A stretch of DNA of 64,000 nucleotides. Source: Candidatus Blackburnbacteria bacterium. GTDB lineage: Bacteria; Patescibacteriota; Microgenomatia; UBA8517; UBA10165. Location: NCBI GenBank assembly GCA_016183565.1, contig JACPEJ010000001.1, forward strand, positions 550,479 to 614,478, given 5' to 3'. Both the position numbers and the translations under genes were made by a program. Every line of letters begins with the position of its first letter. The stretch's first letter is position 1. The notes beneath the pieces are model-generated. The model did no database searches, was not told where the DNA came from, and worked only from the letters and a program-made list of their open reading frames with translations. Below, piece after piece: positions 14,724-57,117 of the stretch.

Positions 14724-15526
14724 CACCTCGGGAGTGGCCGCTCGGGTTGTCGCATGTGTCATGAATGATAAATTTGGCGTAATCGGAAGCGACACTCCCG
14801 AGGTGTAGGTTCGAGGTGTAGGTTTAGAACTCTTCCATATCCAATAGCTGGTGTTTGATTCTCTCCAGAGTTTCCCCATACGAAATCTGATCTTCTAGGA
14901 AACTTTTATACTTTTTAGATGAATTGGAGAAAAATGATAAGATTTCACTAACTTCGCACAACTTGCTATTCCCTATCATAAAATCTTGATAAGAAGACCA
15001 TGGGTACTCGCCCAAACTTTTGGTTAGATGAGAGACAATTGGGTTAAGATGGATATATCTGGATACGTGGAGAAATTGATCTTCGCTTTCGACCCGTACA
15101 GCCTTAAACCTGCCTTGGAAAAGGGGCCCTATTTTCCTATGTTTTGTATTAAAGTACTTTACATAGCTGTTGGACAACTGACCTACGAATTTTGAGATAC
15201 CGCCATCTTGTAGTTGTTGCACCAGAAGGTGGAAATGGTTAGGCATTAGACAATATGAGAAAATTTTTACTATTTTCTTTTTATCTGATAATTTAATAGG
15301 TAGTAGAGTACCGTGTGTAAATTTGGAAAATTTAGGTTTGGGCCCTTCGATATAATAATAAGAAGTAGTCTGTAGGAACCTTTTATAATCCCTCTGTAGT
15401 AAGAAAATATCTTGCTTGTTAGCACCACGATTAAAAATGTGGTATGTTTCATTGGTTATAAGTGGAGTTAATCTACCAGGCATTATTTTTAATTATGAGC
15501 GGCCACTCCCGAGGTGTCAATATCGG
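14724..15526 (-). mobile_element. REP-associated tyrosine transposase (IS200/IS605 TnpA-like, RAYT) unit with flanking inverted REP hairpins
   Basis: The CDS 14824..15483 has the HUH motif (PNHFHLLVQQ) and an IS200-like N-terminus. The 20-nt sequence gagcggccactcccgaggtg at 15497-15516 is the exact reverse complement of 14724-14743. An additional REP-like copy lies at 14790-14825. Confidence 0.75.
14824..15483 (-). CDS. IS200-like Y1 (HUH) transposase, REP-associated (RAYT)
   Basis: 219 aa. YHIFNRG..., ...CLMPNHFHLLVQQ (HUH) and a downstream Tyr-containing helix. Paralog at 56402..57076. Confidence 0.8.
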   Translation of the reverse strand: MPGRLTPLITNETYHIFNRGANKQDIFLLQRDYKRFLQTTSYYYIEGPKPKFSKFTHGTLLPIKLSDKKKIVKIFSYCLMPNHFHLLVQQLQDGGISKFVGQLSNSYVKYFNTKHRKIGPLFQGRFKAVRVESEDQFLHVSRYIHLNPIVSHLTKSLGEYPWSSYQDFMIGNSKLCEVSEILSFFSNSSKKYKSFLEDQISYGETLERIKHQLLDMEEF

Positions 15527-15552
15527 AAATGAGCTATGTGATATGATAAGGT

Positions 15553-17460
15553 GTGCGACTGCTCACTGCTGCTAGAATCTTAATCTTCAATACTTTTTTC
15601 CTTCTTGTTGCTTGTCTGTTACCTATTACTGTTTCTGCTCAACAGGAATTTAAGACCGAATATCAGACTGTTTATACGGTTCTAGAAAACGGGGATGCGC
15701 AAGTTTCGCAAGACATAACTCTTACCAATAATTTTTCAACTATTTACGCAACTTCGTACACATTGTCTCTTGAGAGTAAAAAACCTGAGAAGATTGAGGC
15801 TTACAGCGGGAAACGAATATTCGAAACAAACACAGAAGAGATAGATCAGATAACAAAAATCACTATATCTTTTCCGGATTCTTTGGTCGGCCGTGGTAAG
15901 TCGAGAACGTTTACCGTAAAATACACGATTCCCGCGCTTGCGAGCCAAAATGGCCAGGTTTGGGAATTAGCCGTGCCCAGGCTTGCCTCTCCTGAATTAT
16001 TGGATTCTTATAATCTCACATTAAGGGTACCAGGGAAATTTGGGAAACTCGCATACGTTTCACCTAACGCAAAAGAAGAGGGCTTGGCGGATGGTTTCAG
16101 AACTTTCTTTTTTGAGAAAGATTCTCTCAGTCGTGCGGGAGTTGTCGCTGCGTTTGGTGATTTTCAGGTTTTTTCTTTCCAAATAAATTATCACCTTCAA
16201 AATCCATTCAAGGATAGGTTGGGTAAAACTTCGATTGTGTTAGTCCCCGATACTGCTTTTCAAAAGGTTTACTACGAAACCTTAGATCCCAAGCCTGAGA
16301 GTATAGAACTTGATGAAGACGGGAACTGGGTAGCAACTTACTACATTGAGGCAGAGGAAAAAATTACAGTGAATGCTCGGGGCTCTGTTCAAATTTTCGC
16401 AACACCTCAAGAGCATTATATGAATGTTGATCCTAAAAGCAAACCATACTATCTTTCAGAAGGAAACTATTGGGAAGTAAATGATCCTGAAATTGTGAAG
16501 ATTGCTAAGGATTTTAGGAGTACACGAGAGATATATGATTTTGTTGTGAATACGCTAACTTATGATTACGAGCGGGTTCGGGAGGGTGTAGAAAGATTAG
16601 GGGCAAAGAGAGCTTTGAATTCTGCCCAGAATGCGGTTTGCATGGAATTTACTGATCTTTTTGTTGCTCTTACTCGTGCTAAAGGTATTCCTGCTCGGGA
16701 AGTAAACGGGTATGCCTATACTGAGAACCCTCGTGTACAACCACTTTCTTTGGTTGCTGATGTTTTGCATGCATGGCCCGAATATTGGGATGAAGATGTG
16801 CAAATTTGGCGTCCGGTTGATCCAACGTGGGGAAACACAACCGGTGGTGTTGATTTTTTTGACAAGTTTGATCTTTCTCATATTACTTTTGCTATCCACG
16901 GTAAAAATTCTGAGTCACCGGCTGCTGCGGGGTCTTATAAAGCTCCAGGAATCCCCCAGAAAGATGTAATAGTAGAGTTTGGCCAACTTCCGCAGAAGAG
17001 AACTTCAACTCCTCAAATACAAGCTTCGTCACCTGATGTGTCCTTTCCTTTCTTCCCCTCTTATTTAACTGTAAAGGTTTCAAATTCTGGACCTGTGGCT
17101 TTATACCATCAAAAAGTGAATATCTCTGGGACTATTCGAGATCTTAAACCTGTGGAAATGAGTAATTCATCTGAGGTGGAATTTCTTGCACCATTTACTT
17201 CACAAATATTAACTTTTTCCTATAGGGCTTCATTTTTTGCTTTCGGGAAACAGAATCAAGTGAATGCACAAGTAGGAGATGTTGCAATTGTTTATGTTCT
17301 TCCTGAATCTAAAAATCAGATACTTGGCTTGGTGCTAATATTTGGCAGTCTGTGTTTGCTTGCGCTAATGGGTGCTGGGGTTGTAAAATTGTGGGCGAGA
17401 AAGCGGGCTTCATGTGCTTCTAATGATCACGCTTCACGAACAGGCGCAGATTCTGCCTAA
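15553..17460 (+). CDS. Transglutaminase-like (cysteine protease fold) membrane-anchored protein
   Basis: Signal/TM at the N-terminus. NAVCMEFTDLFVALTRAKGIPAREVNGYAY is the transglutaminase-core Cys motif. C-terminal TM plus basic tail. Confidence 0.65.
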   Translation: MRLLTAARILIFNTFFLLVACLLPITVSAQQEFKTEYQTVYTVLENGDAQVSQDITLTNNFSTIYATSYTLSLESKKPEKIEAYSGKRIFETNTEEIDQITKITISFPDSLVGRGKSRTFTVKYTIPALASQNGQVWELAVPRLASPELLDSYNLTLRVPGKFGKLAYVSPNAKEEGLADGFRTFFFEKDSLSRAGVVAAFGDFQVFSFQINYHLQNPFKDRLGKTSIVLVPDTAFQKVYYETLDPKPESIELDEDGNWVATYYIEAEEKITVNARGSVQIFATPQEHYMNVDPKSKPYYLSEGNYWEVNDPEIVKIAKDFRSTREIYDFVVNTLTYDYERVREGVERLGAKRALNSAQNAVCMEFTDLFVALTRAKGIPAREVNGYAYTENPRVQPLSLVADVLHAWPEYWDEDVQIWRPVDPTWGNTTGGVDFFDKFDLSHITFAIHGKNSESPAAAGSYKAPGIPQKDVIVEFGQLPQKRTSTPQIQASSPDVSFPFFPSYLTVKVSNSGPVALYHQKVNISGTIRDLKPVEMSNSSEVEFLAPFTSQILTFSYRASFFAFGKQNQVNAQVGDVAIVYVLPESKNQILGLVLIFGSLCLLALMGAGVVKLWARKRASCASNDHASRTGADSA

Positions 17461-18736: not shown

Positions 18737-18772
18737 CAGCAACCCACCAACGCGCAATACTAGAGATGGTAT

Positions 18773-19174: not shown

Positions 19175-19185
19175 TATAATAAACA

Positions 19186-19504: not shown

Positions 19505-19522
19505 TTATTTAATTAATGTGCA

Positions 19523-20866
19523 ATGCGTACTCTTCGATATTGGGCAAGGTTCTCGGCGACTTTTTTAAAAAGGTTTAAAAGGATCCTTTTTGCTAGCATA
19601 TTTTTGGGGATTTTGGGCTTCCTTTTTTATTCTCAGGCGAGTAAGGTTTTCTCACTTTTTAATCGGGGTGAGGTTATAGGCATTGTCGGTAAGCTTTCTT
19701 TGACTGATTTGCCTTCAGAAATTCAATCAAAGGTAAGCCTTGGACTAACTACTTTGGATGAAAACGACAATGTTAAGCCTGGAATTGCAACTTATTGGGA
19801 AAGCCAGGAAGAAGGTAGGGTTTGGATTTTCAAACTCGGAGATTATACTTGGCAAGATGGTTCGCGAATTCGCGCTTCGGATATAAATTATCAATTTTCC
19901 GATGTAACTAAAGAAATTTTGGATGATAGAACTATCAAATTTACTCTAAAAGATCCTTTTGCTCCGTTTCCTTCTGTTGTTTCAAGACCGATATTTAAGC
20001 AGGGTCTTTTGGGGGCAGGGGAATGGGAAGTTCAAAAATTATCTTCACTTAGTTCGCAGTTGACTCAATCAATTCAGTTAGTTAGTAAAAAAACGGGGAA
20101 AAAACAAACCTATCGTTTTTATCAAACTGAGGATGCTCTTAGAACTGCATATAAGCTAGGTCAGATAAACAAATTGATGGGAATAATGGACACCCGAGAA
20201 CTTTCTGGTTGGCCCAATAGTGTTGTTGAGGAATATACCCACGAGGATAGATATGTGGGGATTTTTATAAACACCGAAGATCCTATTCTTTCTTCAAAAA
20301 GTGCAAGACAAGCTTTGGCATACGCAATAAATAAAGACAATTTTCCTCAAAAGAGGGCAATAAGTCCTATTTCCCCGAATTCATGGGCGTTTAATCCGCA
20401 GGTAAAACAATATAATTATAATTTAGATCGAAGCCGCGAGCTTCTTAAGACATTACCAGAACAAGTTAAAAAAGACCTCAACATTAATCTTGTAACCTCA
20501 CCAAGTCTTTTACATATTGCTGATAAGATTAAGTCGGACTGGGAGGTGGTTGGGGTGAAAACTCATATTCAAGTATCTAATGCGCCACCGCAAAGTTTCC
20601 AAACTTTTCTTGCGATACAAGCAATTCCATATGATCCGGATCAATACAGTTTTTGGCATTCGACACAGACTGCTACAAACATAACAAGATATAGTAAAAA
20701 AGAGAAAGAAAGCCAAAGGATTGACAAGCTTTTGGAGGATGGTAGAAAAACATTGGATGCGGAGGAGCGCAAGAAGATTTATTTTGATTTCCAAAGGTTC
20801 TTACTTGAAGACCTTCCTGTTATTCCTCTTTTTCACCCGGTTACTTATACTATTTCGAGGAAGTAG
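19523..20866 (+). CDS. Membrane-anchored solute-binding-protein family 5-like protein
   Basis: N-terminal TM. ATYWESQEEGRVWIFKLGDYTWQDGSRIRASDINYQF and ARQALAYAINKD resemble SBP_bac_5 (Dpp/Opp-like) motifs. Truncated relative to full-size SBPs. Confidence 0.45.
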   Translation: MRTLRYWARFSATFLKRFKRILFASIFLGILGFLFYSQASKVFSLFNRGEVIGIVGKLSLTDLPSEIQSKVSLGLTTLDENDNVKPGIATYWESQEEGRVWIFKLGDYTWQDGSRIRASDINYQFSDVTKEILDDRTIKFTLKDPFAPFPSVVSRPIFKQGLLGAGEWEVQKLSSLSSQLTQSIQLVSKKTGKKQTYRFYQTEDALRTAYKLGQINKLMGIMDTRELSGWPNSVVEEYTHEDRYVGIFINTEDPILSSKSARQALAYAINKDNFPQKRAISPISPNSWAFNPQVKQYNYNLDRSRELLKTLPEQVKKDLNINLVTSPSLLHIADKIKSDWEVVGVKTHIQVSNAPPQSFQTFLAIQAIPYDPDQYSFWHSTQTATNITRYSKKEKESQRIDKLLEDGRKTLDAEERKKIYFDFQRFLLEDLPVIPLFHPVTYTISRK

Positions 20867-20898
20867 TAAAGCAGGGTGCTCTAACCGAGCAGGTTCCC

Positions 20899-20933
20899 GA
20901 TGTGCAAACCTGTTCCACTCCCGATGTGGAATG
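20899..20933 (+). repeat. REP-like element (GATGTGCAAAnCTnTTCCAC-loop-GTGGAA family)
   Basis: gatgtgcaaacctgttccactcccgatgtggaatg is near-identical to copies at 52521-52555 and 57084-57117. Confidence 0.6.
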
Positions 20934-21072: not shown

Positions 21073-21077
21073 CTGTG

Positions 21078-21287: not shown

Positions 21288-21434
21288 TTAAGTATCCCCA
21301 ATTCTATTTCATTTTGGTATTTTTTTCAAGGAAAATTGGTGCGGGAGGTGTTGTACCCGCCTGCCGGACGGGCAGGTCTGTTCCACCGGTTCGGCTGAGC
21401 TCACGGTCGAAGTCTTTCAGGTGGAATTAAGGTT

Positions 21435-21455
21435 ACACCTCGGGGGTGGCCGCTC
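21435..21455 (+). repeat. REP-like element (copy of the RAYT-flanking repeat)
   Basis: acacctcgggggtggccgctc differs by one base from the repeat at 14724-14743 and 15497-15516. Confidence 0.55.
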
Positions 21456-28343: not shown

Positions 28344-30074
28344 ATGACTCTTCGAAAGTTGCTTGGCTTAGTACCCAGTCCAGTTCTATTTATTTTTCTT
28401 CTCGCATTTTTTCTTCGAACCTATAAATTAGCAGAATTACCAGTTGGCTTTCATGCTGACGAAGTAAGAGTTGGTTGGAATGCTTATTCGATTTTGAAAA
28501 CTGGGCGGGATGATTGGGGGAATAGATTACCGCTTTACTACAACACATTCGGCGACTTTCGCCCAACGGGATACTTCTATCTTACGATTCCATCAATAAT
28601 AGCCTTTGGCACAACCGAATTTGCAGTTAGATTCCCAGGGGCTTTATTCGGCGCATTGACTATTGTATCGCTTTATTTTTTTGTTAGACAATGTGTTTCA
28701 AAAAGTATACTGCGTTCTAGATACTTCACACTTGATACTGCTAGTGCCTCCGCACTCCTACTTGCACTTTCACCTTGGCATATCTCGCTTTCTCGTGCCA
28801 CCTCTGAAGGTATAGTTGCAGTCTTTTTAGTCATCACTGGTTTAAGTTTACTTATTTATTATCTACACACCAGGCGTGCGTTATTTTTACTACCTGCACT
28901 ACTTTTACTACTTTCTTCGTATCTTTTTTACCACTCAGCCCGTCTTCTTGTTCCATTGCTCGCGACAACAACTGCAGGCTATTTCTGGTGGCAATATTAC
29001 AAAAATACCCGAGGTGCCAACGTATTCCACCTCCCAGGTGGAAAATATGCACTCTTGCTTTTACTCTTGCTCTTTTTGGTAACACTTGCTTTTAGTCTAA
29101 ATAAAGAAGCCCGTGCTCGTTTTTCTCAAGTCTCAATTATCCATGACTTAGATGTTAAATTTGAACTTGATAAAATGCCTTTTGAGGAAGGTCCCAATAG
29201 GGTTTTTATTGCACGATTCTTTCATAACAAACCTAGTGTGTGGGCCCGACGGTTTATCGATGAGTACATGCAATATATAAGTGCAAAATTCTTCCTTGTC
29301 CCGAAGGAGGCCAAGCCTTTGCGCTATGCAACTGTTGGCATGGGAATTTTAACTTATGCTGAGTTTGCGCTTCTTATTTTAGGACTCGTTGCTTTAGCTC
29401 AAAAGAAGAATTACACCTCTGTTCTATTTCTATTTTTATTTCTTCTTTCTCCCTTACCTGCAGCAATAACAACCGAGGATGCGCCCAATATGCACCGAGC
29501 ACTTTTTATGGCTCCGTTTGTATCTGTACTCAGTGCTTTTGGCCTGTTTTATCTAATGAACACCCAAAGACATTCCACTTTGCTGCGTAATGCTGCCTTT
29601 GTGGTTGTGGGTTTGAATTTTATTTTCTTTTCCCACATGTACTTAACTCACAATCGTGTTAATAATCCTCTCTATAGAAATGTAGGGGCAAAAGAACTTG
29701 CGATGAAAATTGATACTATAAAAGATGTGTATGATGAGATTTTGATCACTAATATTCCAGATAGTCCATATCCTTGGATTGCGTATTTTGCTAACCAAGA
29801 TCCCAAAGTCTTCAACACAGATGCTCAAGCAAGAGATAAAGGAGTTTGGACAAGCAACAACTTAGTTTTTACGGGAATGCGTTGTCCATCAAGAGATGCT
29901 TTCAAACAAGATTCGGAAAATGAGCTTAATAAAGTTAAAAAGTTGCTGGTTGTAGATGCCGAGGCTTGTGAGGCTGAGGCGTATAAGTACAATTATGGTG
30001 AAAATGTAACTATATTAGATCAAATCAAAAGACCCGACGGAACCATAGTGTATACTCTGTGGGCCCGAGAATAG
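28344..30074 (+). CDS. GT-C fold glycosyltransferase, ArnT/PMT (GT39/GT83)-like
   Basis: The start is chosen at the internal Met (MTLRKLLGLVPSPVLFIFLLAFFLRTYKLAELPVGFHADE...), the typical ArnT/PMT N-terminus with a DE motif in loop 1. The longer ORF begins at 28242. Confidence 0.7.
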   Translation: MTLRKLLGLVPSPVLFIFLLAFFLRTYKLAELPVGFHADEVRVGWNAYSILKTGRDDWGNRLPLYYNTFGDFRPTGYFYLTIPSIIAFGTTEFAVRFPGALFGALTIVSLYFFVRQCVSKSILRSRYFTLDTASASALLLALSPWHISLSRATSEGIVAVFLVITGLSLLIYYLHTRRALFLLPALLLLLSSYLFYHSARLLVPLLATTTAGYFWWQYYKNTRGANVFHLPGGKYALLLLLLLFLVTLAFSLNKEARARFSQVSIIHDLDVKFELDKMPFEEGPNRVFIARFFHNKPSVWARRFIDEYMQYISAKFFLVPKEAKPLRYATVGMGILTYAEFALLILGLVALAQKKNYTSVLFLFLFLLSPLPAAITTEDAPNMHRALFMAPFVSVLSAFGLFYLMNTQRHSTLLRNAAFVVVGLNFIFFSHMYLTHNRVNNPLYRNVGAKELAMKIDTIKDVYDEILITNIPDSPYPWIAYFANQDPKVFNTDAQARDKGVWTSNNLVFTGMRCPSRDAFKQDSENELNKVKKLLVVDAEACEAEAYKYNYGENVTILDQIKRPDGTIVYTLWARE

Positions 30075-34934: not shown

Positions 34935-34992
34935 TGTGTATTAACTATACCAGTCTTGGTCAACCTGCCGCAAGAAAGTTGCTACAATCTTG

Positions 34993-35046
34993 AGGTGTCG
35001 TATCTGATCCACCCCCGAGGTGGATTTCGCCTTACACCTCTGGAGC
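34993..35046 (+). repeat. REP-like element pair (gtgtcgtatctgatccacc-hairpin family)
   Basis: gaggtgtcgtatctgatccacccccgaggtggatttcgccttacacctctgg. The 19-nt core is shared with the intragenic copy at 55470-55505. Confidence 0.5.
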
Positions 35047-35125: not shown

Positions 35126-35199
35126 CGGGGAGTAGCTCAGTTGGCTAGAGTGCGCGGTTTGGGACCGTGAGGTCGGAGGTTCGAGTCCTCTCTCCCCGA
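35126..35199 (+). tRNA. tRNA-Pro (TGG)
   Basis: CGGGGAGTAGCTCAGTTGGCTAGAGTGCGCGGTTTGGGACCGTG... has anticodon loop TTTGGGA, T-loop TTCGAGT and acceptor CGGGGAG/CTCCCCG. Confidence 0.85.
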
Positions 35200-36889: not shown

Positions 36890-36975
36890 TTTATCGAAAA
36901 ATCCGAACTCGCTTCAAGTCGAATCGGTAGGCCCGCCAGAGGCGGGCCATCTTATCCGCTCAGCCTTCGGCCCAA
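36886..36975 (+). repeat. Inverted repeat X (left copy); partner at 39046..39140
   Basis: gtcgacctttatcgaaaaatccgaactcgcttcaagtcgaatcggtaggcccgccagaggcgggccatcttatccgctcagccttcggcc is the reverse complement of 39046-39140. It contains the perfect hairpin ggcccgcc-agag-gcgggcc. Confidence 0.7.
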
Positions 36976-37231
36976 ACTCTTAAACTGTCGGCTCGAACGG
37001 GTTGCTTTAGCAACCCCAAAAAACGCGAAAATTTTTTAAAGAACTTTTTCCTTTTTGTTTTTCACTTAAAAGGCGCAACCGGTGGACTCAACAAGAATTG
37101 TGTTCTGTTGTCCGATTGCGCCATTAAAAAACACAATTCATAAAATGTTGAGTCCATGAAAAATATATACTGAAGAATGATAAATTTCAACTGGGATTAT
37201 TTATATCAAAACTAAACAAATAAAAATAACA

Positions 37232-37633
37232 ATGGAACTTAAAACATCTTTGTGCAATACTAAATTTGTGAAGTATAAACTTGTACTAACATTGGCTTTA
37301 ACATTTGGCATTATACCTTCTCTACTTTTGCATAGATTTATTTACGGAATTTCTCATGAAAGTGCTGTATATCTAGAATGCAGATTATTATCAAGCTGTT
37401 CGCATTATTACGAGGGTCTAGCACTAAAATTTGTTTCACTTGTTTATTTAATTTTGTATAGCATAACAGTGCTATACTTTCCTTATAAAATAGCAAGAAA
37501 GGAGAGTACGTCTCTTCTTTCATTGCAAACCATCAAAGAAATGGATCTCAAAAGTATTCTAATCGTAATTTTTGTAAGTTTACTATATCTACCGTTAATC
37601 TTTTTTCTGAGTTCCTCAAATAATCCCTTGTGA
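37232..37633 (+). CDS. Small membrane protein (hypothetical) inside the IR-flanked cassette
   Basis: 133 aa with 3 TM helices. Very AT-rich. Confidence 0.4.
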   Translation: MELKTSLCNTKFVKYKLVLTLALTFGIIPSLLLHRFIYGISHESAVYLECRLLSSCSHYYEGLALKFVSLVYLILYSITVLYFPYKIARKESTSLLSLQTIKEMDLKSILIVIFVSLLYLPLIFFLSSSNNPL

Positions 37634-37705
37634 TGGGTTTTTCCGTCTCTTAATGGCTTTTAACTGAAATTTGACTTTTCCAATAAAATATGTGTAAATT
37701 AAATA

Positions 37706-38044
37706 ATGGCTAATAATAGTGTGAATTCTTCTAGTAGTAAATCCTCGGGCATTAAAACAATAGTCACTATTATAATGTTGTTCTTGCTTTACCCGGTAGG
37801 TGTAATTATGATGTTTGTATGGATGAAGTGGCCAATATGGGTAAAAATTATAACGACCCTTGTAATGTTTTATGTTTTTTTTGTAATTATTGGGGCAGTA
37901 GCGGGGTTAGTAGTTCAGGTAACTGATCCTTATGGAAAAATATTTGAAGCACAGCGTAGGCAATGTACAGCTCAATGCGAAAATGTCCCTAATGCAACTG
38001 CCTGTATGACTGAATGTCTAGAGAAGTTGCGAGCTCCGAAATAA
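37706..38044 (+). CDS. Small membrane protein with Cys-rich C-terminus (hypothetical)
   Basis: 112 aa with 2 TM helices. C-terminal CTAQCENVPNATACMTEC. Confidence 0.4.
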   Translation: MANNSVNSSSSKSSGIKTIVTIIMLFLLYPVGVIMMFVWMKWPIWVKIITTLVMFYVFFVIIGAVAGLVVQVTDPYGKIFEAQRRQCTAQCENVPNATACMTECLEKLRAPK

Positions 38045-38051
38045 ATTTAGA

Positions 38052-38771
38052 TTAAACTACCAAAAAGTATTTTTTAAAAGGTAAGGATATTTGACCTTCT
38101 TCATTTACAAATTTATCCGTAGACAAAGATAAGCATGCAATTTTAGATTTACCATATAGAAATAATAAATGACCACTGTTAGAAGTTGCTGTTAACCAAG
38201 ACTTTTTAATTACTTCAACATTGTGAACTTGCCAAAATAGCTGAAATAAAGTTATTGGGATCATAAGAATTAGTATCATATTGATAACAAATTTAATTGT
38301 TGATAAATCATTAATACCTGTAAATTTATTTAAGAGAAAAGGTCCAAAGAAATATAAGGAGATGCCAATAAGGATCGCGTTTACTAGGTTTTGCAAACGT
38401 CTGTCTACAAAATAATTATTATTAGTCTCTATTAAGAAGGCAGGAACTGGAAATAACTTAAGTTCAAAGCAAAGCTTCTTAGATATAAGTTGGTCATCTG
38501 GGTAAACTTGTCTAATTAGAACTTCAATCGGCCGAAATGGAATAAAGTTATAAAGCCAATCTTTGAATGTAATAATTCCAGATTCTTTAGATTTGAATTT
38601 TTTAATAGCATCCTTGATAGTTTTAGTAGTAAAAAATATTGGAACACCGATAAAAATGACTACAGACATTATTATAAGAACTATTGTTGCTAAATCACGA
38701 AGTTGTTTGTTAGAGGTGGGATTAGAAATTATGATTGCTCCACCAAAAAGCACTATCACAACTAATAACAC
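38052..38771 (-). CDS. Polytopic membrane protein (hypothetical), convergent with the two genes above
   Basis: 239 aa with 5-6 TM helices. Confidence 0.4.
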   Translation of the reverse strand: MLLVVIVLFGGAIIISNPTSNKQLRDLATIVLIIMSVVIFIGVPIFFTTKTIKDAIKKFKSKESGIITFKDWLYNFIPFRPIEVLIRQVYPDDQLISKKLCFELKLFPVPAFLIETNNNYFVDRRLQNLVNAILIGISLYFFGPFLLNKFTGINDLSTIKFVINMILILMIPITLFQLFWQVHNVEVIKKSWLTATSNSGHLLFLYGKSKIACLSLSTDKFVNEEGQISLPFKKYFLVV

Positions 38772-39045
38772 CAGAATAAAAGTTAATAGAAAAGATTTTA
38801 TAGCTTTAGTATAGCAAATCTACTATCTATAATTCTCTAAAAAAAGAGAAGATAAAATCAGTACCGTTCCCCTTAAAATTTCTGCTACAATATCAGGGGG
38901 AGAAAAGTTTTCGCGCACGGGAGGGCGGGGCAAGAAAACATTAAATTGTTTTTGTGTCCTTGTCCGCCATAGGCGGACTATAAATAATAAAAATCGCGCG
39001 CATTTAAAATACTTTCTAAGTATTTTGCAAAAAATACATAGAGCG

Positions 39046-39140
39046 AGGCCGAAGGCTGAGCGGATAAGATGGCCCGCCTCTGGCGGGCCTACCGATTCGA
39101 CTTGAAGCGAGTTCGGATTTTTCGATAAAGGTCGACTAAT
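39046..39140 (-). repeat. Inverted repeat X (right copy)
   Basis: Exact reverse complement of 36886-36975. Ends 8 nt before tRNA-Gly(TCC). Confidence 0.7.
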
Positions 39141-43463: not shown

Positions 43464-43513
43464 CTTAATTAAAAATTGTTATTGCACTTTATTGTGCAAA
43501 GAAAACCCGCAAC
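43464..43513 (-). promoter_or_regulatory. Conserved promoter/operator-like block (cttaattaaaaat.gttattg.actttatt.t.ca..aaaacccg)
   Basis: Near-identical to 61939-61988, with a partial copy at 63475-63489. All three lie just upstream of minus-strand genes (Bro-N fragment, Xis-like HTH, brnT). Confidence 0.45.
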
Positions 43514-52194: not shown

Positions 52195-52520
52195 GCATCC
52201 TAGTCTAAAAAGAACTGGATACAGGGTAGTAATAATTTAGTAAGAACCTTGTCAGAACAAGAACCTTGCTTTAGCTTCGCTGGGAAGCTACACAAAAGTA
52301 AGAATCTTGTCAGAACAGGGATCTTGTGATGTTTATTCCTGTGCTTGGTTTTCAGTGGGTTTCCACTCACCACGTTCAAACTCTTCTAAGAACTCTTGTT
52401 CTTCTTTGTCTAATTCATAATATTTCATTTTTGTTTGCCTTGCCTCCTTGTTTTGGGTAAGGTTTTGTTGCCTTTCTGCTGGGAAATATAGTTTTAAGGA
52501 ATATTTTCTCTTCATCTCCC

Positions 52521-52555
52521 GATGTGCAAAGCTATTCCACTCCCGATGTGGAATG
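52521..52555 (+). repeat. REP-like element (GATGTGCAAAGCTATTCCAC-loop-GTGGAA)
   Basis: Near-identical to 20899-20933 and 57084-57117. Confidence 0.6.
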
Positions 52556-52763
52556 GAATGAGTCAAAAAAGGTTTGCACTACAACACTAAGCCAACATGG
52601 GTGGGTAGAAAGCCATTGACTTAAAGCTTGTTGGACAGTTTGGGCATAGGGAAATTCGACTCCAAATGTTTGCATCATAATTGCCCAATAAAACGCTAAG
52701 AAACCCAAGACGAATGGTTTCCAGTTGACAGATGAAACAATGTCCACCATGGAGTTCATTAGA

Positions 52764-54149: not shown

Positions 54150-54321
54150 TCACCAACACCCGCCGTGTGGTTAATTGCCGAGGAGTGGCAGGGTTTTCGA
54201 GCGAAGAATTTACCGGGTCACAAGTTCCGGACTATACCAGAAGCGCACTCTTTCTGTCAAGCCGAGTGCAAGAAATGAAATCAAAAAATGGTAAGAAATT
54301 GGTAAGAACCTTTCAGGCTGT

Positions 54322-54579
54322 TTACTCGATTTCCTCTTCGTCTGTTTCGAGGGGACCTATTAGCTCTTGTTCTGAGAGGGCGTCTTCCACCTCAGAGGAA
54401 CTTTCATAAGTTTCTTCAGGCAAGCGCTCAAGAATTGCAAGAATATTGTCATCAGCCCGTTGCTGTGTTGCATATTCTATTAGCTGGTCTTTTGTAGCAG
54501 GATATGTAATTCCTTCTAAAAACGCTTCAACTTCAGCGTAGGTTGGCATTGGGTTGGTATTGGTTAATTCATCATTCAT
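54322..54579 (-). CDS. Small conserved protein (DUF2795-like) with acidic tail
   Basis: Paralog of 50293..50499. Overlaps the sodC start by 8 nt. Confidence 0.4.
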   Translation of the reverse strand: MNDELTNTNPMPTYAEVEAFLEGITYPATKDQLIEYATQQRADDNILAILERLPEETYESSSEVEDALSEQELIGPLETDEEEIE

Positions 54580-55093
54580 GGTTTTTTACTTTATATACTA
54601 CACCGCAGGCAATTCTCGGCCCACCACTAATACCAGAGCCAGCAGGACCTCCTTTATAAGGATCAGGGTTCCCATGAATCATCAGGGCTGTCCCGTCTCT
54701 TCCCAAAATACTCAAAGGACCTGACGATAATGTAAATCGTGTAGTAATTGCCTCAAGTCGCCCCTCACCCTCTTCGTCAATCTCAATATTGGGAAGATCA
54801 CCCGCATGAAATGGATGATTAACATCAGGGTCAGTATTCCCTGCTGGCCCGGGATCAAAATGCCCCCCAGCACACTTAAAACCCCCTTCGCACGTTCCTT
54901 TCTCGTGAACGTGTACAGCATGTAAACCCGGAGTCAACTTTTCCACATCACCAGAAAGCCCAACAGTAACCTTAACAAATCTACCCGTTCCAACTTTATA
55001 TTCTATAAAAATTGCTTCACCAGTTATCCCATCGCCCACAACATCAGCCCTTGCTCTTACGAACTCTTTGGGTTCCTTGCTAAACAGCTCCAT
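54572..55093 (-). CDS. sodC: Superoxide dismutase [Cu-Zn]
   Basis: GLHAVHVHEKGTCEGGFKCAGGHFDPG ... NHPFHAGDLPNIEIDEEGEG are copper/zinc-ligand His motifs of Cu/Zn SOD. No obvious signal peptide. Confidence 0.85.
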   Translation of the reverse strand: MELFSKEPKEFVRARADVVGDGITGEAIFIEYKVGTGRFVKVTVGLSGDVEKLTPGLHAVHVHEKGTCEGGFKCAGGHFDPGPAGNTDPDVNHPFHAGDLPNIEIDEEGEGRLEAITTRFTLSSGPLSILGRDGTALMIHGNPDPYKGGPAGSGISGGPRIACGVVYKVKNHE

Positions 55094-55161
55094 AGTTTTT
55101 GATACTTATTTGAGTTGATAACAGCTTAAGAGAAAGGTAAGAACTTGGCAAGAACCAAAAC

Positions 55162-56283
55162 CTAAAAAAATCTAACTTTCATTTTATCCTGAGCCTCTAT
55201 TGACAAGGAAACTATCTGTCCAGGGAATTTTGCTCCAGGTCCCCATATTTTTGCTGTATCTTTGTTTCCGGCAAATTCGGTTCCAATTTTCAACATTACA
55301 TCGGATAATTTATCTCCTTTGTGCATGATAATTAGTTCTTCAAAATTTTTCTTTTGTCCAGATTGAGCTAAAAAGACTCGTACTAAACCAAGCTTGTCCC
55401 ATAAAGCTTCGCGCAGTCGGTCTAGTCCTATGCCGGTTTCAGCACTAATTTGGATCACTTTTTCCATACGTGTCGTATCTGATCCACCTGAAAGGTGGAT
55501 TTCAGTAGAGGTTACATCGGCCTTGCTTGCAATATAAAGTGCTTGTGTGTAGATTCTATTAGTTGCTAGGCAATCAACTAATCGGTTTATGGTTAAGTGT
55601 TCTTTAAGTGTAACTTCTGCGTTGGAAAATCCGAATTCGCGCACTACTTCAATAATAGTTTCTCTGTCCAATTCTTGTGGAACCGTGGAATTAACTTTTA
55701 TTCCGCCACGAAGGATTTTTTTTATTTCTACTTTTGGTCTTTCTTCGTTAATTCTCACTCCGTTTAGATAAAGTTCTTGGTTTATTTGATTGAATTGTTT
55801 TTCTTTTCCTAAAGGAGCAATGACAAGCAAAAGGTCTGCACTTCGAACGACTGAAAGGACTTCGCGGCCACGACCTTTTCCTTGTGCTGCACCCTCAATA
55901 AGCCCGGGTACGTCCAGAGCCTGTATTTGTGCTCCTTTGTAGTTCATCATTCCCGGGATTACGTTTACTGTTGTGAAGGCGTATTCTGCAATAGAGGATT
56001 TGGCGTTTGTGAGTGCGTTAAGAAGTGTGGATTTTCCAACAGAGGGGAAACCTACAAGAACAATGGTTGCGTCTCCAAACTTTTTGATAGCAAAGCCTCC
56101 GCCACCACCCACACTACTTTTTGTTTGCTTTTCGGCAATTCTATCCTTGAGCTTGGCAATTCGGGCCCGCATTTTGCCAAAAAAATGTTCGGTCCCTTTG
56201 TGGTAGGGTGTTTCCTTAAGTTCCTTTTCAATTGCCTCGATTTGTCGTTGGATATCTTCCATAATTTTCGAATTGTCAAGCAA
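55162..56283 (-). CDS. Obg/DRG-family GTPase with C-terminal TGS domain
   Basis: G1 GFPSVGKSTLLNALT, G3 DVPGLIEGA, a coiled N-terminal helix and a TGS-like C-terminus. An REP-like hairpin is embedded at 55470-55505. Confidence 0.75.
   Translation of the reverse strand: MLDNSKIMEDIQRQIEAIEKELKETPYHKGTEHFFGKMRARIAKLKDRIAEKQTKSSVGGGGGFAIKKFGDATIVLVGFPSVGKSTLLNALTNAKSSIAEYAFTTVNVIPGMMNYKGAQIQALDVPGLIEGAAQGKGRGREVLSVVRSADLLLVIAPLGKEKQFNQINQELYLNGVRINEERPKVEIKKILRGGIKVNSTVPQELDRETIIEVVREFGFSNAEVTLKEHLTINRLVDCLATNRIYTQALYIASKADVTSTEIHLSGGSDTTRMEKVIQISAETGIGLDRLREALWDKLGLVRVFLAQSGQKKNFEELIIMHKGDKLSDVMLKIGTEFAGNKDTAKIWGPGAKFPGQIVSLSIEAQDKMKVRFF
55470..55505 (+). repeat. REP-like hairpin inside the GTPase coding sequence
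   Basis: gtgtcgtatctgatccacctgaaaggtggatttcag shares the 19-nt core gtgtcgtatctgatccacc and the ccacc-N5-ggtgg stem with 34995-35030. It is translated in frame as ..EIHLSGGSDTTR.. Confidence 0.5.
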
Positions 56284-56339
56284 ATTCCAATTTGTTTCTG
56301 CTTATATTTTACACTGAAACAATGATAACTGTTGTAGAT

Positions 56340-57117
56340 TTCCACCTGGGAGGTGGAATACGTTGACACCTCGGTAAAAGTTTTCTAAACTGGGTTTATA
56401 TATGCCGGGAAGACAGATACCATTAGTAACCGGTCAAATGTATCACGTTTTCAATCGGGGTCTAGATAACCGTTCTACTTTTACTGATAAACGGGAGTAT
56501 GTGCGTGCCGACATGGCAATAAGGTTTTATCGATTCGTCAATCCTCCTCTTAAGCTTTCTAGGTTTTTGGTTTTGCCAAAAGACGACAGGATGAAGCTCT
56601 TGCAGGAGACAGAGGCTCGACGAGAAAAACTTGTAGATATTCTCTGCTATTGTTTTATGCCAAACCATTTCCACTTACTTCTTCGTCAGCTTAGAGATGG
56701 TGGCATTTCGAAGTTTTTAGCTAATTATCAGAACAGTTATACTCGTTATTTTAATACTAAGCACGAAAGGTTAGGTACTTTGTTTCTTGATCAATTTAAG
56801 GCGGTGAGGGTGCAAAACGAGGAACAAATGGTTCATGTTAGCCGATATATTCACCTCAATCCGTATACCTCTTATGTAACAGAGGATTTGTTAAGCTTGC
56901 GTAGTTATAGATGGTCTTCTTTTAGGGAGTACCTGGGAATAGCTTCAGGAAATATTTGCGATACAGAAATAGTTCTGTCGTTTTTTAAAAATGAAGGTGA
57001 GTATGAGAAGTTTGTGTTTGATAATGCCGCTTACCAGAGAGAGCTTGACAGGATTAAGCATCTAGTTTTTGAGTAAAATACCGACGTGCAAAGCTGTTCC
57101 ACCTCCCAGGTGGAAGG
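56340..57117 (+). mobile_element. Second RAYT (IS200-like TnpA) unit flanked by inverted copies of one REP hairpin
   Basis: CDS 56402..57076 (HUH motif PNHFHLLLRQL). The 5' flank ttccacctgggaggtggaa (56340-56358) is the reverse complement of the 3' flank ttccacctcccaggtggaa (57098-57116). Confidence 0.75.
56402..57076 (+). CDS. IS200-like Y1 (HUH) transposase, REP-associated (RAYT), paralog of 14824..15483
   Basis: 224 aa. MPGRQIPLVTGQMYHVFNRG / CFMPNHFHLL mirrors MPGRLTPLITNETYHIFNRG / CLMPNHFHLL in the first copy. Confidence 0.8.
   Translation: MPGRQIPLVTGQMYHVFNRGLDNRSTFTDKREYVRADMAIRFYRFVNPPLKLSRFLVLPKDDRMKLLQETEARREKLVDILCYCFMPNHFHLLLRQLRDGGISKFLANYQNSYTRYFNTKHERLGTLFLDQFKAVRVQNEEQMVHVSRYIHLNPYTSYVTEDLLSLRSYRWSSFREYLGIASGNICDTEIVLSFFKNEGEYEKFVFDNAAYQRELDRIKHLVFE

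What the first reader, a model, noticed from the sequence alone, without database searches (positions are those of the whole stretch)
14724..57117. Two RAYT transposase copies and a dispersed family of REP-like hairpins (>=10 copies), including one inside a GTPase CDS
Two IS200-like HUH transposases (14824..15483 and 56402..57076) are each bracketed by inverted copies of a short hairpin. The first pair is 14724-14743 versus 15497-15516; the second is ttccacctgggaggtggaa versus ttccacctcccaggtggaa.
Related elements built on ccacc-N5-ggtgg stems occur throughout the window:
- a conserved GATGTGCAAAGCTGTTCCAC flank at 20899, 52521 and 57084;
- gtgtcgtatctgatccacc at 34995;
- ttgacacctcgg at 11660, 15510 and 56360.
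This is the REP/RAYT arrangement described in proteobacteria, here apparently in a small CPR-like genome with two distinct REP subfamilies. One copy (55470-55505) is translated in frame inside an Obg/DRG GTPase gene.
Basis: seen in the sequence. Interest (0 to 1): 0.6.

Follow-up and report, generated by a model that had tools for sequence, protein, structure and literature searches.

The report
REP-like hairpin repeats with transposases in CPR
A tiny-genome groundwater bacterium (Candidatus Blackburnbacteria) carries two old, single-copy tyrosine "transposase" genes, each bracketed by a ~40-base hairpin element. Copies of that element are scattered between genes, sit in frame inside two protein genes, and recur almost unchanged across many related lineages, which extends a system best known from proteobacteria to the candidate phyla radiation.

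Summary
The window (Ca. Blackburnbacteria MAG, 39.8% GC) has two Y1/HUH transposase genes: 14824-15483(-) and 56402-57076(+), 44% identical. It also has a dispersed ~40-nt element: 5' box tCCCGAGGTG, an 8-9 nt spacer, then the hairpin TTCCACC-N5-GGTGGAA. There are seven strong copies and about seven degenerate ones. The hairpin core occurs 7 times against 0.01 expected.

RAYT-2 is flanked by inverted copies. RAYT-1 is flanked by a perfect 20-nt inverted repeat of a degenerate variant. Copies are enriched between genes. Both in-gene hairpins sit at the same position in other Blackburnbacteria orthologues.

The same element occurs in at least 174 Microgenomates stretches from genomes and metagenomes, and in no viral contig. 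It flanks all four homologues chosen by protein similarity alone. The upstream copy supplies a consensus -35 box (TTGACA-N17-TAnnnT, ending 4-12 nt before the ATG) in 37 of 47 homologues.

The best reading is a REP/RAYT-like system. Strict RAYT membership fails: the NCBIfam score is below cut-off, there is no NP(L/V)(R/K)xG motif and no GTAG foot. The motif signature fits TnpA-Y1 subclass 2.1 (TIRYT-like), which was reported as not REP-associated. I rate it a new variant of a known kind.

The parts
56402..57076 (+). RAYT-2: Y1/HUH tyrosine transposase-like gene, 224 aa (HUH = NHFH; catalytic Tyr in RYIHLNP)
   Evidence: Pfam PF01797 at 34.7 bits. Alignment A4 has H89, H91 and Y149 invariant. 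The AF2 model (pLDDT 84.8) has 4ER8 TnpA-REP as its top hit, E 2.6e-5.
14824..15483 (-). RAYT-1: paralogous Y1/HUH gene, 219 aa, 44% identical to RAYT-2. It sits between uvrA and a transglutaminase-like gene.
   Evidence: An orthologue occupies the same uvrA-adjacent position in another Blackburnbacteria MAG (L062).
56338..56377 (-). REP unit upstream of RAYT-2, ordered hairpin distal and box proximal to the gene. Its box/spacer junction forms the -35 hexamer.
   Evidence: CM 44.6 bits. Inverted repeat I5. Promoter-like site at 56363-56391.
57078..57117 (+). REP unit 3 nt downstream of the RAYT-2 stop codon, inverted relative to the upstream unit
   Evidence: CM 48.2 bits. Flank analysis.
20894..20933 (+). 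Solitary REP unit (GAT variant) between the SBP_bac_5 gene and a tRNA cluster
   Evidence: CM 47.8 bits. It is 95% identical to 52517-52555, and the identity is sharply limited to the unit.
52516..52555 (+). Solitary REP unit (GAT variant). It overlaps the last codons of an unannotated 82-aa ORF.
   Evidence: CM 48.8 bits. A Logan contig of the same population ends here.
29006..29045 (+). REP unit in frame inside the GT39/PMT_2 glycosyltransferase gene 28344-30071(+). It encodes TRGANVFHLPGGK.
   Evidence: CM 46.3 bits. Gene identity comes from homologues. Loop insertion is seen relative to non-Blackburnbacteria orthologues. The hairpin sits at the same place in the L063 orthologue.
55462..55502 (+). 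REP unit in frame, on the opposite strand, inside the DRG/Obg-like GTPase gene 55162-56283(-). It lies in the loop between G4 (SKAD) and G5 (ISA) and encodes EIHLSGGSDTTRM.
   Evidence: CM 39.5 bits. Translation. Orthologue alignment. A homologous REP is at the same place in L062.
34987..35045 (.). 'Double-foot' REP: box-spacer-hairpin-spacer'-box'. It lies about 80 nt upstream of tRNA-Pro.
   Evidence: CM 51 bits (+) and 27.7 bits (-) sharing one hairpin. The ssDNA fold is -14.7 kcal/mol, z -3.9.
11617..11674 (.). Degenerate double-foot REP between uvrB and uvrA
   Evidence: CM 20.6 bits (-) and 10.2 bits (+). The fold is -15.4 kcal/mol, z -5.4.
14713..14816 (.). REPIN-like pair downstream of RAYT-1: two 24-nt inverted arms (88%) separated by 56 nt. 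It is preceded by a CCACC-rich tract at 14680-14722.
   Evidence: Inverted repeat I15. The fold is -27.1 kcal/mol, z -4.8.
15497..15523 (+). Upstream flank of RAYT-1: variant GAGCGGCCACTCCCGAGGTG, the perfect 20-nt inverted partner of 14724-14743, running into the box GGTGTCAAT
   Evidence: Inverted repeat I20.. The homologous flank is present at the L062 orthologue.
21414..21446 (-). Solitary degenerate copy of the RAYT-1-type variant (GAGCGGCCACCCCCGAGGTGTAACCTTAATTCCACC). Its 3' arm is missing.
   Evidence: CM 14.8 bits..
56363..56391 (+). Promoter-like site TTGACA-17-TAAACT for RAYT-2, ending 10 nt before the ATG
   Evidence: The same architecture is found in 37 of 47 distinct homologue upstream regions.
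15492..15520 (-). Promoter-like site TTGACA-17-CATAAT for RAYT-1, ending 8 nt before the ATG

Best explanation
This is a REP/RAYT-like ('REPtron' or 'TIRtron'-like) system native to Microgenomates, a CPR lineage.

**Components.** Two old paralogous single-copy Y1/HUH tyrosine enzymes each sit between copies of a cognate ~40-nt element. The element reads tCCCGAGGTG (box), then 8-9 nt, then TTCCACC-loop-GGTGGAA (a 7-bp hairpin). The box is a direct copy of the loop plus 3' arm.

**Proposed mechanism.** By analogy with TnpA-REP, IS608 and ISDra2, the enzyme binds the hairpin when the DNA is single-stranded, for example at the replication fork. It cleaves and rejoins next to it, with the box and the identical 3'-arm sequence as the likely cleavage or recognition sites. 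This occasionally copies, or by conversion homogenises, units at other places.

**Fate of copies.** Copies that land between genes, or in frame in tolerant protein loops, survive.

**Regulation.** The unit upstream of each enzyme gene also provides the -35 hexamer of a consensus promoter for a (near-)leaderless mRNA. Enzyme bound to its own hairpin or box could therefore repress its own gene.

**Shown here:** the anatomy, the gene-repeat association across genomes, the intergenic enrichment, the in-frame copies, the fold and catalytic motifs, and the promoter consensus.

**Inferred, not shown:** DNA binding, cleavage, mobilisation, autoregulation, and any benefit to the host.
For: **The enzyme.**
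- Y1_Tnp domain with invariant HUH and Tyr.
- The AF2 model's best PDB match is TnpA-REP bound to a REP hairpin, followed by IS608 and ISDra2 TnpA.
- The two paralogues are 44% identical, with no near-identical copies.
- RAYT-1 lies in the same uvrA-adjacent place in a second Blackburnbacteria genome, at 52% identity against 72% for UvrA.

**The element.**
- 7 strong copies against 0.01 expected.
- A discrete unit with sharp edges.
- ssDNA hairpins of -4 to -9 kcal/mol for the seven single units (two mirrored double units -15; the 121-nt pair by RAYT-1 -27).
- Compensatory stem variants ATCCACC/GGTGGAT, AACACC/GGTGTT and TTCACC/GGTGAA.

**The association.**
- RAYT-2-like genes have an upstream(-)/downstream(+) unit at fixed distances in 26 of 36 scorable cases.
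- All four homologues chosen by protein similarity alone are flanked by it.
- In L186 and L188 the two paralogues in one genome each have their own hairpin variant.

**Distribution.**
- 54 genome stretches and at least 120 metagenome stretches, essentially all Microgenomates-type.
- None in 2.9 M viral contigs.

**Location.**
- Intergenic enrichment with P = 0.008 in the window and 3e-23 in other loci.

**Sign of intragenomic copying.**
- 34995-35028 and 55470-55503 share an identical 19-nt spacer plus arm and a compensated A..T closing pair.
- In-gene copies carry the loop variant of their own genome's RAYT flank.

**Promoter.**
Against: - There is no biochemical evidence.
- The whole genome could not be scanned, so copy number (roughly 1 strong copy per 9 kb here) is an extrapolation.
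- No insertion polymorphism or empty site was found, so mobility is not demonstrated.
- Strict RAYT hallmarks are missing: NCBIfam below cut-off, no NP(L/V)(R/K)xG, no GT[AG]G foot.
- RAYT-1-like genes in other genomes mostly carry flanking units in direct, not inverted, orientation (9 of 17). That is the IS200-like geometry.
- The extreme conservation of the element across lineages whose enzymes are only 45-60% identical, and at orthologous in-gene positions, is unusual for selfish REPs. It could instead reflect a host function.
- Most loci were retrieved with the hairpin pattern itself, which inflates apparent sequence conservation.
- My first genome scan used a 9-nt spacer and so missed the window's own 8-nt copies.
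Confidence: 0.72

Rival explanations
1. The hairpin element is mainly a host-selected DNA or RNA signal, such as a protein-binding site, an mRNA 3' stabiliser or terminator, a promoter module, or a DNA-uptake-type sequence. It would be maintained by purifying selection. The Y1 proteins would then be domesticated enzymes that use it as a site for a housekeeping task such as replication or repair processing, not as a substrate for spreading it.
For: - Near-identical sequence in many Microgenomates lineages whose Y1 proteins are only 45-60% identical.
- The hairpin core is conserved 14/15 at orthologous in-gene positions while flanking coding DNA is roughly half identical (counted from the printed alignments).
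- The upstream copy doubles as a -35 box.
- The genes sit among housekeeping genes: uvrABC, gyrAB, ileS-ftsZ.
- Published view: group-1 / subclass-2.1 RAYTs are co-opted single-copy genes without REPINs.
Against: - No T-run follows the hairpin, and orientation relative to neighbouring genes is inconsistent.
- A density of about 1 per 9 kb is low for an uptake signal.
- The fixed geometry around the Y1 genes and paralogue-specific variants are what cognate transposase ends look like.
- Pairs of copies within one genome share variable spacer sequence, which indicates copying, not independent selection.
- This rival overlaps with the best explanation rather than excluding it.
Confidence: 0.17
2. 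These are ordinary selfish IS200-like insertion sequences (gene plus left and right end hairpins), and the scattered units are their MITE-like or solo-end debris. Nothing is domesticated.
For: - RAYT-1-like genes in other genomes are usually flanked by units in direct orientation, as IS200/IS605 ends are.
- The Y1_Tnp domain is present.
- NCBI annotates the proteins as 'transposase'.
Against: - The Tyr motif is Y---NP (class 2), not the Y---Q of IS200 transposases.
- The proteins are about 220 aa, not about 150.
- The two copies in the window are only 44% identical, and no near-identical copies were seen.
- Position is conserved next to uvrA in a second species.
- No tnpB partner is present.
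- No viral contig carries the element.
Confidence: 0.09
3. Chance or compositional artefact: short GC-rich palindromes that happen to recur in an AT-rich genome.
For: The degenerate pieces scoring 5-15 bits are individually near noise.
Against: - 7 exact hairpin cores against 0.01 expected.
- 39-51-bit CM scores.
- 200 distinct units in unrelated contigs with the same box, spacer length and hairpin.
Confidence: 0.01

Closest known systems
REP/RAYT (TnpA-REP) systems, or 'REPtrons', of Proteobacteria (Nunvar 2010; Ton-Hoang 2012; Messing 2012, PDB 4ER8; Bertels & Rainey 2011)
   Same: - A single-copy Y1/HUH gene bracketed by inverted copies of a short palindromic element.
- The element is also dispersed, mostly between genes.
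- Class-2 Tyr motif Y---NP.
- The best structural match is 4ER8.
- Paralogue-specific cognate repeats.
- Conserved chromosomal position.
- The enzyme evolves faster than its neighbours.
   Different: - No GT[AG]G at the hairpin foot. Instead a 9-nt box lies 8-9 nt upstream and duplicates the loop plus 3' arm.
- The RAYT motifs (N-terminal Thr, NP(L/V)(R/K)xG) are absent.
- The NCBIfam REP_Tyr_transpos score is below cut-off.
- The protein is about 220 aa with an extra helical C-terminal region.
- The element is conserved across a class-level clade instead of being species-specific.
- The host is a CPR bacterium with a genome under 1 Mb.
TnpA-Y1 subclass 2.1 (Quentin et al. 2018), equal to Bertels group 1, equal to the TIRYT/'TIRtron' of Di Nocera et al. 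2013
   Same: - Motif signature: NH[YF]H, FQ in place of WQ, Y[IV]HLNP, and a conserved SS (WSS) in the tail.
- Length about 220-240 aa.
- Low copy number with low identity between copies.
- The gene is flanked by terminal inverted repeats.
- Some TIR families are moderately repeated in genomes.
   Different: - Published subclass 2.1 has no associated REP-like hairpins and usually a C-terminal HTH (DnaA_C, HTH_23 or HTH_28). No such Pfam domain is detected here.
- The published TIR consensus GGGGWSAS does not match.
- Here the flanks are true hairpin units and are dispersed.
- Assignment is by motifs only. No phylogeny was run.
IS200/IS605 insertion sequences (IS608, ISDra2)
   Same: - Y1/HUH fold.
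- Subterminal hairpins recognised as ssDNA, with cleavage sites at a set distance from the hairpin. This is the model for the box-to-hairpin spacing.
- Direct orientation of end hairpins, as seen around many RAYT-1-like genes.
   Different: - The Tyr motif is Y---Q in IS200 but Y---NP here.
- IS200 transposases are about 150 aa.
- IS200 elements are multi-copy and near-identical, often with tnpB. None of that is seen here.
Rickettsia palindromic elements (RPE) and intragenic REPs (cited in Di Nocera 2013; Quentin 2018, subclass 2.4)
   Same: Palindromic repeats inserted in frame in protein-coding genes, tolerated in loops. Here these are the GTPase G4-G5 loop and a GT39 loop, and large ORFs in other Microgenomates.
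   Different: - RPEs are 100-150 bp, CGTC-tagged, and have no dedicated transposase.
- Here the unit is about 40-60 nt and has cognate Y1 genes.
- The in-gene hairpins are kept at the same position in orthologues about 60% identical, and are better conserved than the surrounding codons.

Membership tests
Y1/HUH tyrosine transposase superfamily (Pfam PF01797 Y1_Tnp) | Profile match above the curated cut-off | tested here: met
   40.2 and 34.7 bits against a cut-off of 23.
Y1/HUH tyrosine transposase superfamily (Pfam PF01797 Y1_Tnp) | His-hydrophobic-His motif and nucleophilic Tyr conserved | tested here: met
   PNHFH (H89, H91) and RYIHLNP (Y149) are invariant in 31 homologues.
Y1/HUH tyrosine transposase superfamily (Pfam PF01797 Y1_Tnp) | HUH fold | tested here: met
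   AF2 model pLDDT 84.8. Foldseek top hits are 4ER8, then 2A6M, 2XO6 and 2XM3. Sequence-only PDB searches were marginal, E 0.07-0.2.
RAYT / TnpA-REP sensu Nunvar 2010 | [quoted passage not shown] | tested here: met
   RAYT-2: units at 56338(-) and 57078(+). RAYT-1: 20-nt perfect inverted repeat. However, RAYT-1-like homologues elsewhere are mostly flanked in direct orientation.
RAYT / TnpA-REP sensu Nunvar 2010 | Flanking element belongs to a family dispersed in the genome, mostly extragenic | tested here: met
   7 strong copies in 64 kb, 5 of them outside long ORFs. The whole genome was not available.
RAYT / TnpA-REP sensu Nunvar 2010 | RAYT-specific motifs: conserved N-terminal Thr and NP(L/V)(R/K)xG after the Tyr | tested here: not met
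   The N-terminal motif is YHVFNRG with no Thr. After the Tyr the sequence is NPYTSY or NPIVSH (motif definition from PMC2817692).
RAYT / TnpA-REP sensu Nunvar 2010 | NCBIfam NF047646 REP_Tyr_transpos equivalog cut-off | tested here: not met
   60.5 and 44.0 bits against a cut-off of 80.
RAYT / TnpA-REP sensu Nunvar 2010 | REP has a GT[AG]G tetranucleotide 0-2 nt 5' of the hairpin foot | tested here: not met
   The 4 nt before the foot are variable (ACAC, GCTA, TCTG, CGTA and others). The conserved box ends 8-9 nt upstream (definition from PMC6006769).
RAYT / TnpA-REP sensu Nunvar 2010 | Single or low copy, vertically inherited, same chromosomal place in related genomes | tested here: met
   The paralogues are 44% identical. 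The RAYT-1 orthologue is next to uvrA in L062. No viral contig carries the element.
RAYT / TnpA-REP sensu Nunvar 2010 | Enzyme binds and cleaves its REP as ssDNA | not testable with these tools
   Needs biochemistry.
TnpA-Y1 subclass 2.1 / TIRYT (Quentin 2018; Di Nocera 2013) | Motif signature NH[YF]H, FQ/W[EQ], Y[IV]HLNP, SS; median length about 238 aa | tested here: met
   NHFH; LFQGRF (RAYT-1) and LFLDQF (RAYT-2); YIHLNP; WSS invariant; 219 and 224 aa (against Table 1). This is a motif comparison only, with no tree.
TnpA-Y1 subclass 2.1 / TIRYT (Quentin 2018; Di Nocera 2013) | C-terminal HTH domain (Bac_DnaA_C, HTH_23 or HTH_28) | tested here: not met
   Pfam finds only Y1_Tnp at E<=0.01. 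The C-terminal 60 residues are helical in the model.
TnpA-Y1 subclass 2.1 / TIRYT (Quentin 2018; Di Nocera 2013) | Flanking TIRs with consensus GGGGWSAS; no REP-like hairpins nearby | tested here: not met
   The flanks are box-plus-hairpin units. Read by eye, the unit consensus and its complement hold no GGGGWSAS match; no scan was run.
IS200/IS605 insertion sequence | Y---Q Tyr motif, about 150 aa, multi-copy near-identical, often with tnpB | tested here: not met
   Y---NP; about 220 aa; 44% identity between the only two copies. The neighbours are uvrA, a transglutaminase-like gene, the GTPase and an unannotated 273-aa ORF.
Any Rfam family | Match at gathering threshold | tested here: not met
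   Only 13 tRNAs were found in the window.

The most novel reading that the evidence does not exclude
A class-wide, vertically inherited partnership between Y1 enzymes of the 'non-REP' subclass 2.1 / group 1 and a cognate hairpin family has persisted through the Microgenomates radiation in genomes under 1 Mb.
- The element is kept uniform by enzyme-driven copying or conversion. In-gene copies at orthologous sites match each genome's own variant.
- It has been built into host biology: as the -35 box of the enzyme's own leaderless promoter, and as in-frame loop segments of essential proteins.
- The duplicated box/3'-arm design would mean a single hairpin directs cleavage on both of its sides.

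If so, group-1 / 2.1 'domesticated' RAYTs in general may have overlooked DNA substrates.
Probability: 0.35. Interest if true: 0.72.

Novelty: new variant of a known kind. Interest (0 to 1): 0.55.

Why it matters
CPR/Patescibacteria genomes are among the smallest and most streamlined known, and they are usually described as poor in repeats. A dispersed palindromic family with its own tyrosine enzymes, conserved across a whole class, is therefore unexpected there, especially one that is written into protein loops and into the enzyme's promoter.

It also gives a concrete, testable DNA substrate for a large group of Y1 proteins. That group has about 6,300 clusters in the protein database, and its nearest published relatives (subclass 2.1 / group 1) were thought to have no associated repeats.

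The box that repeats the loop plus 3' arm offers a simple design for in vitro cleavage tests.

On the practical side, these 40-nt repeats break short-read assemblies of CPR genomes: Logan contigs end at two of them. They also mark rearrangement junctions between related genomes.

Tried and rejected
1. **Mis-specified genome scan.** My one genome-contig scan used a 9-nt spacer. Five of the window's copies have 8 nt, so the source genome itself was not retrieved and a whole-genome census was not possible.
2. **Source contig.** The look-up of encoding contigs for both RAYTs returned only short Logan contigs, not the 686-kb NCBI contig.
3. **Sequence search of the PDB.** A single sequence found nothing. 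A profile gave only marginal hits, E 0.07-0.2. Fold comparison was needed.
4. **Rfam.** No family matched.
5. **Viral contigs.** No match.
6. **Alternative hairpin (box pairing with the 5' arm).** Rejected. In the GAT variant the co-varying base lies in the loop and cannot pair, so the box/3'-arm relation is a direct repeat, not a structure.
7. **Strand bias against replication direction.** Six of 7 strong copies are on the + strand, but GC skew is not uniformly positive across the window. Inconclusive.
8. **Clean 12-residue insertion in the GTPase.** This cannot be decided. The loop varies from roughly 10 to 30 residues (counted from the printed alignment) among orthologues, and the nearest orthologue without the element is only about 60% identical.
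9. **Covariation statistics on the stem.** These are weak, because retrieval fixed the stem. Only 28 unbiased hairpins were available, with a handful of compensated variants.
10. **TIRYT consensus GGGGWSAS.** No match, by eye on the consensus; not scanned.
11. **Stop-to-stop ORF counts.** Some 'in-ORF' counts are upstream read-through of the RAYT ORF itself. The 18% in-ORF figure is therefore an upper bound.

Full report
**1. Source and genes**

The window has 39.8% GC. Its proteins are identical to NCBI entries named Candidatus Blackburnbacteria bacterium, on a contig of 686,250 bp. Blackburnbacteria belong to the Microgenomates, part of the CPR.

ORFs 14824-15483(-) (219 aa, 'RAYT-1') and 56402-57076(+) (224 aa, 'RAYT-2') both match Pfam Y1_Tnp above its cut-off. 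They are 44% identical over their full length. NCBIfam's REP-associated tyrosine transposase model is their only meaningful hit, but it scores below its cut-off: 60.5 and 44 bits against 80.

**2. The repeated element**

Repeat finding, pattern scans and a covariance model built from 52 copies define a unit of about 40 nt. It consists of a 5' box tCCCGAGGTG, a spacer of 8 or 9 nt, and a hairpin TTCCACC-N5-GGTGGAA.

| Class | Positions |
|---|---|
| Strong copies, 39-51 bits | 20894-20933(+), 29006-29045(+), 34987-35027(+), 52516-52555(+), 55462-55502(+), 57078-57117(+), 56338-56377(-) |
| 'Double-foot' elements, with a second inverted box after the hairpin | 34987-35045 and 11617-11674 |
| Degenerate pieces | 14723-14737(-), 14795-14817(+), 15506-15523(+), 21414-21446(-) |

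- The hairpin core TCCACN7GTGGA occurs 7 times against 0.01 expected.
- As single-stranded DNA the seven single units fold at -4 to -9 kcal/mol, the two double-foot elements at about -15, and the 121-nt pair region 14705-14825 next to RAYT-1 at -27.
- No Rfam family matches.
- Copies 20894 and 52516 are 95% identical, and the identity stops sharply at the unit's edges.
- Copies 34995-35028 and 55470-55503 share an identical 19-nt spacer plus arm and a compensated A..T closing pair.

Together these indicate copying of a discrete unit within this genome.

**3. Relation to the two genes**

RAYT-2 has a unit 26 nt upstream in (-) orientation and a unit 3 nt downstream in (+) orientation. The boxes face the gene and the hairpins point outward.

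RAYT-1 is bracketed by a perfect 20-nt inverted repeat, 14724-14743 / 15497-15516. It is a variant, GAGCGGCCACTCCCGAGGTG, with only a short CCAC/GTGG stem. A third copy of this variant is at 21424-21446. Downstream of RAYT-1 the arms 14713-14736 and 14793-14816 form a REPIN-like pair. The RAYT-1 orthologue in another Blackburnbacteria MAG (L062) has homologous flanks carrying that genome's own loop variant.

**4. Other genomes**

- An exact-pattern scan of one genome per species found 54 stretches. They come from MAGs named Davies-, Roizman-, Shapiro-, Chisholm- and Gottesmanbacteria, Microgenomates and 'Patescibacteria group'.
- Some hits are in MAGs labelled 'uncultured Gammaproteobacteria' and one is labelled Omnitrophota. 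I could not check those labels.
- That scan used a 9-nt spacer by my mistake, so it missed the window's own 8-nt copies.
- Viral contigs gave none.
- Across 200 distinct units, conservation begins 7 nt before the box's GTG and ends with the hairpin. Flanks are AT-rich and unconserved. The spacer is 9 nt in 147 units and 8 nt in 53.
- The box co-varies with the loop plus 3' arm. GAT pairs with GAT in 18 units against 2+2 discordant (Fisher 2e-21, not corrected for relatedness). TAG goes with CAG, and GAG with GAG.
- In the GAT variant the varying base lies in the loop, so this is a direct-repeat relation, not an alternative helix.

**5. Test not biased by the pattern**

I fetched four RAYT-2 homologues chosen only by protein similarity: one in a Chisholmbacteria MAG, one in a Roizmanbacteria MAG, and two in metagenome contigs (the proteins are named Levybacteria and unnamed). 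I inspected their surroundings.

- All four are flanked by box-plus-hairpin units.
- The stems differ with compensation: ATCCACC/GGTGGAT, AACACC/GGTGTT, TTCACC/GGTGAA.
- Two of these loci carry a second, RAYT-1-like paralogue within 8 kb, each with its own hairpin variant.
- Over all loci, RAYT-2-like genes have upstream(-)/downstream(+) units in 26 of 36 scorable cases.
- RAYT-1-like genes mostly have both units in the same orientation (9 of 17), the geometry of IS200 ends.

**6. Position relative to genes**

In the window, 2 of 7 strong copies are spanned by an ORF of at least 150 aa, against 78% of random 41-nt positions (P = 0.008). In the first 54 foreign loci the figures are 19 of 72 against 81% (P = 3e-23). 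The consensus unit is open in 5 of 6 reading frames, which explains how in-gene copies can survive.

**7. In-frame copies**

*GTPase copy.* The GTPase 55162-56283(-) has MMR_HSR1 and MMR_HSR1_Xtn domains. It carries unit 55462-55502 on the opposite strand, encoding EIHLSGGSDTTRM between G4 (SKAD) and G5 (ISA). In 20 orthologues this loop varies from roughly 10 to 30 residues by my count of the printed alignment, so an insertion cannot be proven by alignment. However, a Blackburnbacteria orthologue (P0133, L062) has KLDHLPGGTDSPPGV there. At the DNA level this is a double-foot unit in the same place and orientation. The hairpin core is 14/15 identical, while flanking codons are roughly half identical by my count of the printed pairwise alignment.

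It encodes TRGANVFHLPGGK.

- Orthologues from other Microgenomates lack roughly 15-25 residues there, by my count.
- Blackburnbacteria orthologues have an insert.
- P0246 (L063) has YLDHLPGGTDSPPGV, encoded by a unit 36/37 identical to the one in the L062 GTPase.

In-gene units are therefore old or recurrent, are better conserved than their surroundings, and resemble the variant that flanks the Y1 gene of their own genome. In other genomes, units sit in ORFs of 479-747 aa. One is at what appears to be the same position of one gene in three MAGs (L043, L048, L057).

**8. The protein**

Alignment of 31 homologues shows invariant NHFH (HUH), RYIHLNP (Tyr) and WSS. An AlphaFold2 model (pLDDT 84.8) matches E. 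coli TnpA-REP bound to a REP hairpin best (4ER8, E 2.6e-5, TM 0.67 on the target). IS608, ISDra2 and IS200 transposases follow.

Against published definitions:
- The class-2 signature Y---NP is present (PMC6006769).
- The RAYT-specific N-terminal Thr and NP(L/V)(R/K)xG are absent (PMC2817692).
- The full signature (NH[YF]H, FQ, Y[IV]HLNP, SS, about 238 aa) is that of subclass 2.1, which corresponds to Bertels' group 1 and to the TIRYTs of Di Nocera.
- For subclass 2.1 no REP-like sequences were found. Bertels and Rainey state that only group 2 and 3 RAYTs are linked to REPINs.
- The published C-terminal HTH domain and the TIR consensus GGGGWSAS are not seen here.

I found no paper linking REP or RAYT to CPR bacteria in the held library.

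**9. Promoter**

The reverse complement of the box/spacer junction GTGTCAA is TTGACAC.
- RAYT-2 has TTGACA-17-TAAACT ending 10 nt before the ATG.
- RAYT-1 has TTGACA-17-CATAAT ending 8 nt before the ATG.
- Of 47 distinct homologue upstream regions, 37 have TTGACA, 16-18 nt, nAnnnT ending 4-12 nt before the start codon.

This explains why upstream units almost always carry the 'TCAA' spacer type. It predicts a (near-)leaderless mRNA and puts the box between -35 and -10, where bound enzyme could repress transcription. That last point is inference.

**10. Interpretation**

The anatomy and its conservation fit a REP/RAYT-like system: a hairpin-recognising Y1 enzyme with cognate ends that also exist as solitary units. 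Mobility, cleavage sites and any host role are inferred by analogy with TnpA-REP and IS608 (named families, established biochemistry). Nothing here shows activity.

Two features go beyond typical REPs. The element is unusually conserved across lineages and inside genes. It also has a promoter role. These leave room for a host-selected function, or for enzyme-driven homogenisation.

I file it as a new variant of a known kind. It works like REP/RAYT, but it fails strict RAYT membership, and by its motifs it belongs to a Y1 subclass that was thought to lack such repeats.

Noticed in passing
window 35197-39137: A large serine recombinase gene at 35397-36674(-) (Resolvase + Recombinase + Zn_ribbon_recom) is bracketed by 103-nt, 100% identical inverted repeats, 35197-35299 / 36784-36886. 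The first arm starts inside the 3' end of tRNA-Pro. The adjoining 2.1-kb segment of unannotated ORFs is bracketed by 91-nt perfect inverted repeats, 36882-36972 / 39047-39137, ending 10 nt before tRNA-Gly. It looks like a tRNA-adjacent integrated element or a pair of invertible segments.
   Followed up: partly
window 19523-20933 and 54572-56377, compared with L062 8355-12191: In another Blackburnbacteria MAG the SBP_bac_5 gene is followed directly by the GTPase and Sod_Cu genes. In the window these are 34 kb apart, and REP units (20894, 56338) sit at both junctions. This suggests a rearrangement with breakpoints at REPs.
   Followed up: partly
L001 and L004 (Logan contigs of the same population); window 52516 and 20894: Short-read contigs carrying the two RAYT genes start or end at or very near (by my estimate from gene positions) the REP units at 52516-52555 and 20894-20933. 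These 40-nt repeats appear to break assemblies of this genome.
   Followed up: no
window 55162-56283(-): By its MMR_HSR1_Xtn domain, and a TGS domain (PF02824) in many of its orthologues though not detected in this protein, the GTPase is a DRG-type 'ribosome-interacting GTPase', an architecture better known from archaea and eukaryotes. Homologues at 50-60% identity are common in Microgenomates.
   Followed up: no
window 43464-43509, 61939-61984, 63460-63489; also 62154-62204 and 63583-63633: Two further small intergenic repeat families are unrelated to the REP: TTAAAAATTGTTATTGCACTTTATTGTGCA (3 copies, 80-87%), and a 51-nt box with GTTAACAATTGTTAA palindromes (2 copies, 86%). They may be operator or promoter modules.
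   Followed up: no
L043 2265-2305, L048 7569-7609, L057 2669-2709: A REP unit lies in frame (KS(R/P)G(A/V)AT(I/L)PPP(R/M)WKF) in what appears to be the same position of one large gene (541-632 aa ORFs) in three different MAGs. The flanks look homologous, but the gene was not identified or aligned. If confirmed, it is a third case of an in-gene copy kept across genomes.
   Followed up: no
L062 7446-7467: A hairpin CACCTCCGAGGTGGAAG lies inside the uvrC coding region of the other Blackburnbacteria MAG. No counterpart exists at the matching place in the window's uvrC.
   Followed up: no
window 14680-14722: A tract of stacked CCACC half-sites (ttccacctttccacctccaccgcctccagcctccacc) lies directly after the uvrA stop codon and next to the RAYT-1 downstream repeat. 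It may be remnants of several 5' arms.
   Followed up: no
L186 and L188: In two other Microgenomates genomes the RAYT-1-like paralogue lies next to the BipA/TypA GTPase gene. In L186 the RAYT-2-like one lies inside a uvrA-transglutaminase-uvrC-SBP cluster like the one holding RAYT-1 in the window. The two paralogues therefore seem to occupy a small set of recurring neighbourhoods.
   Followed up: no
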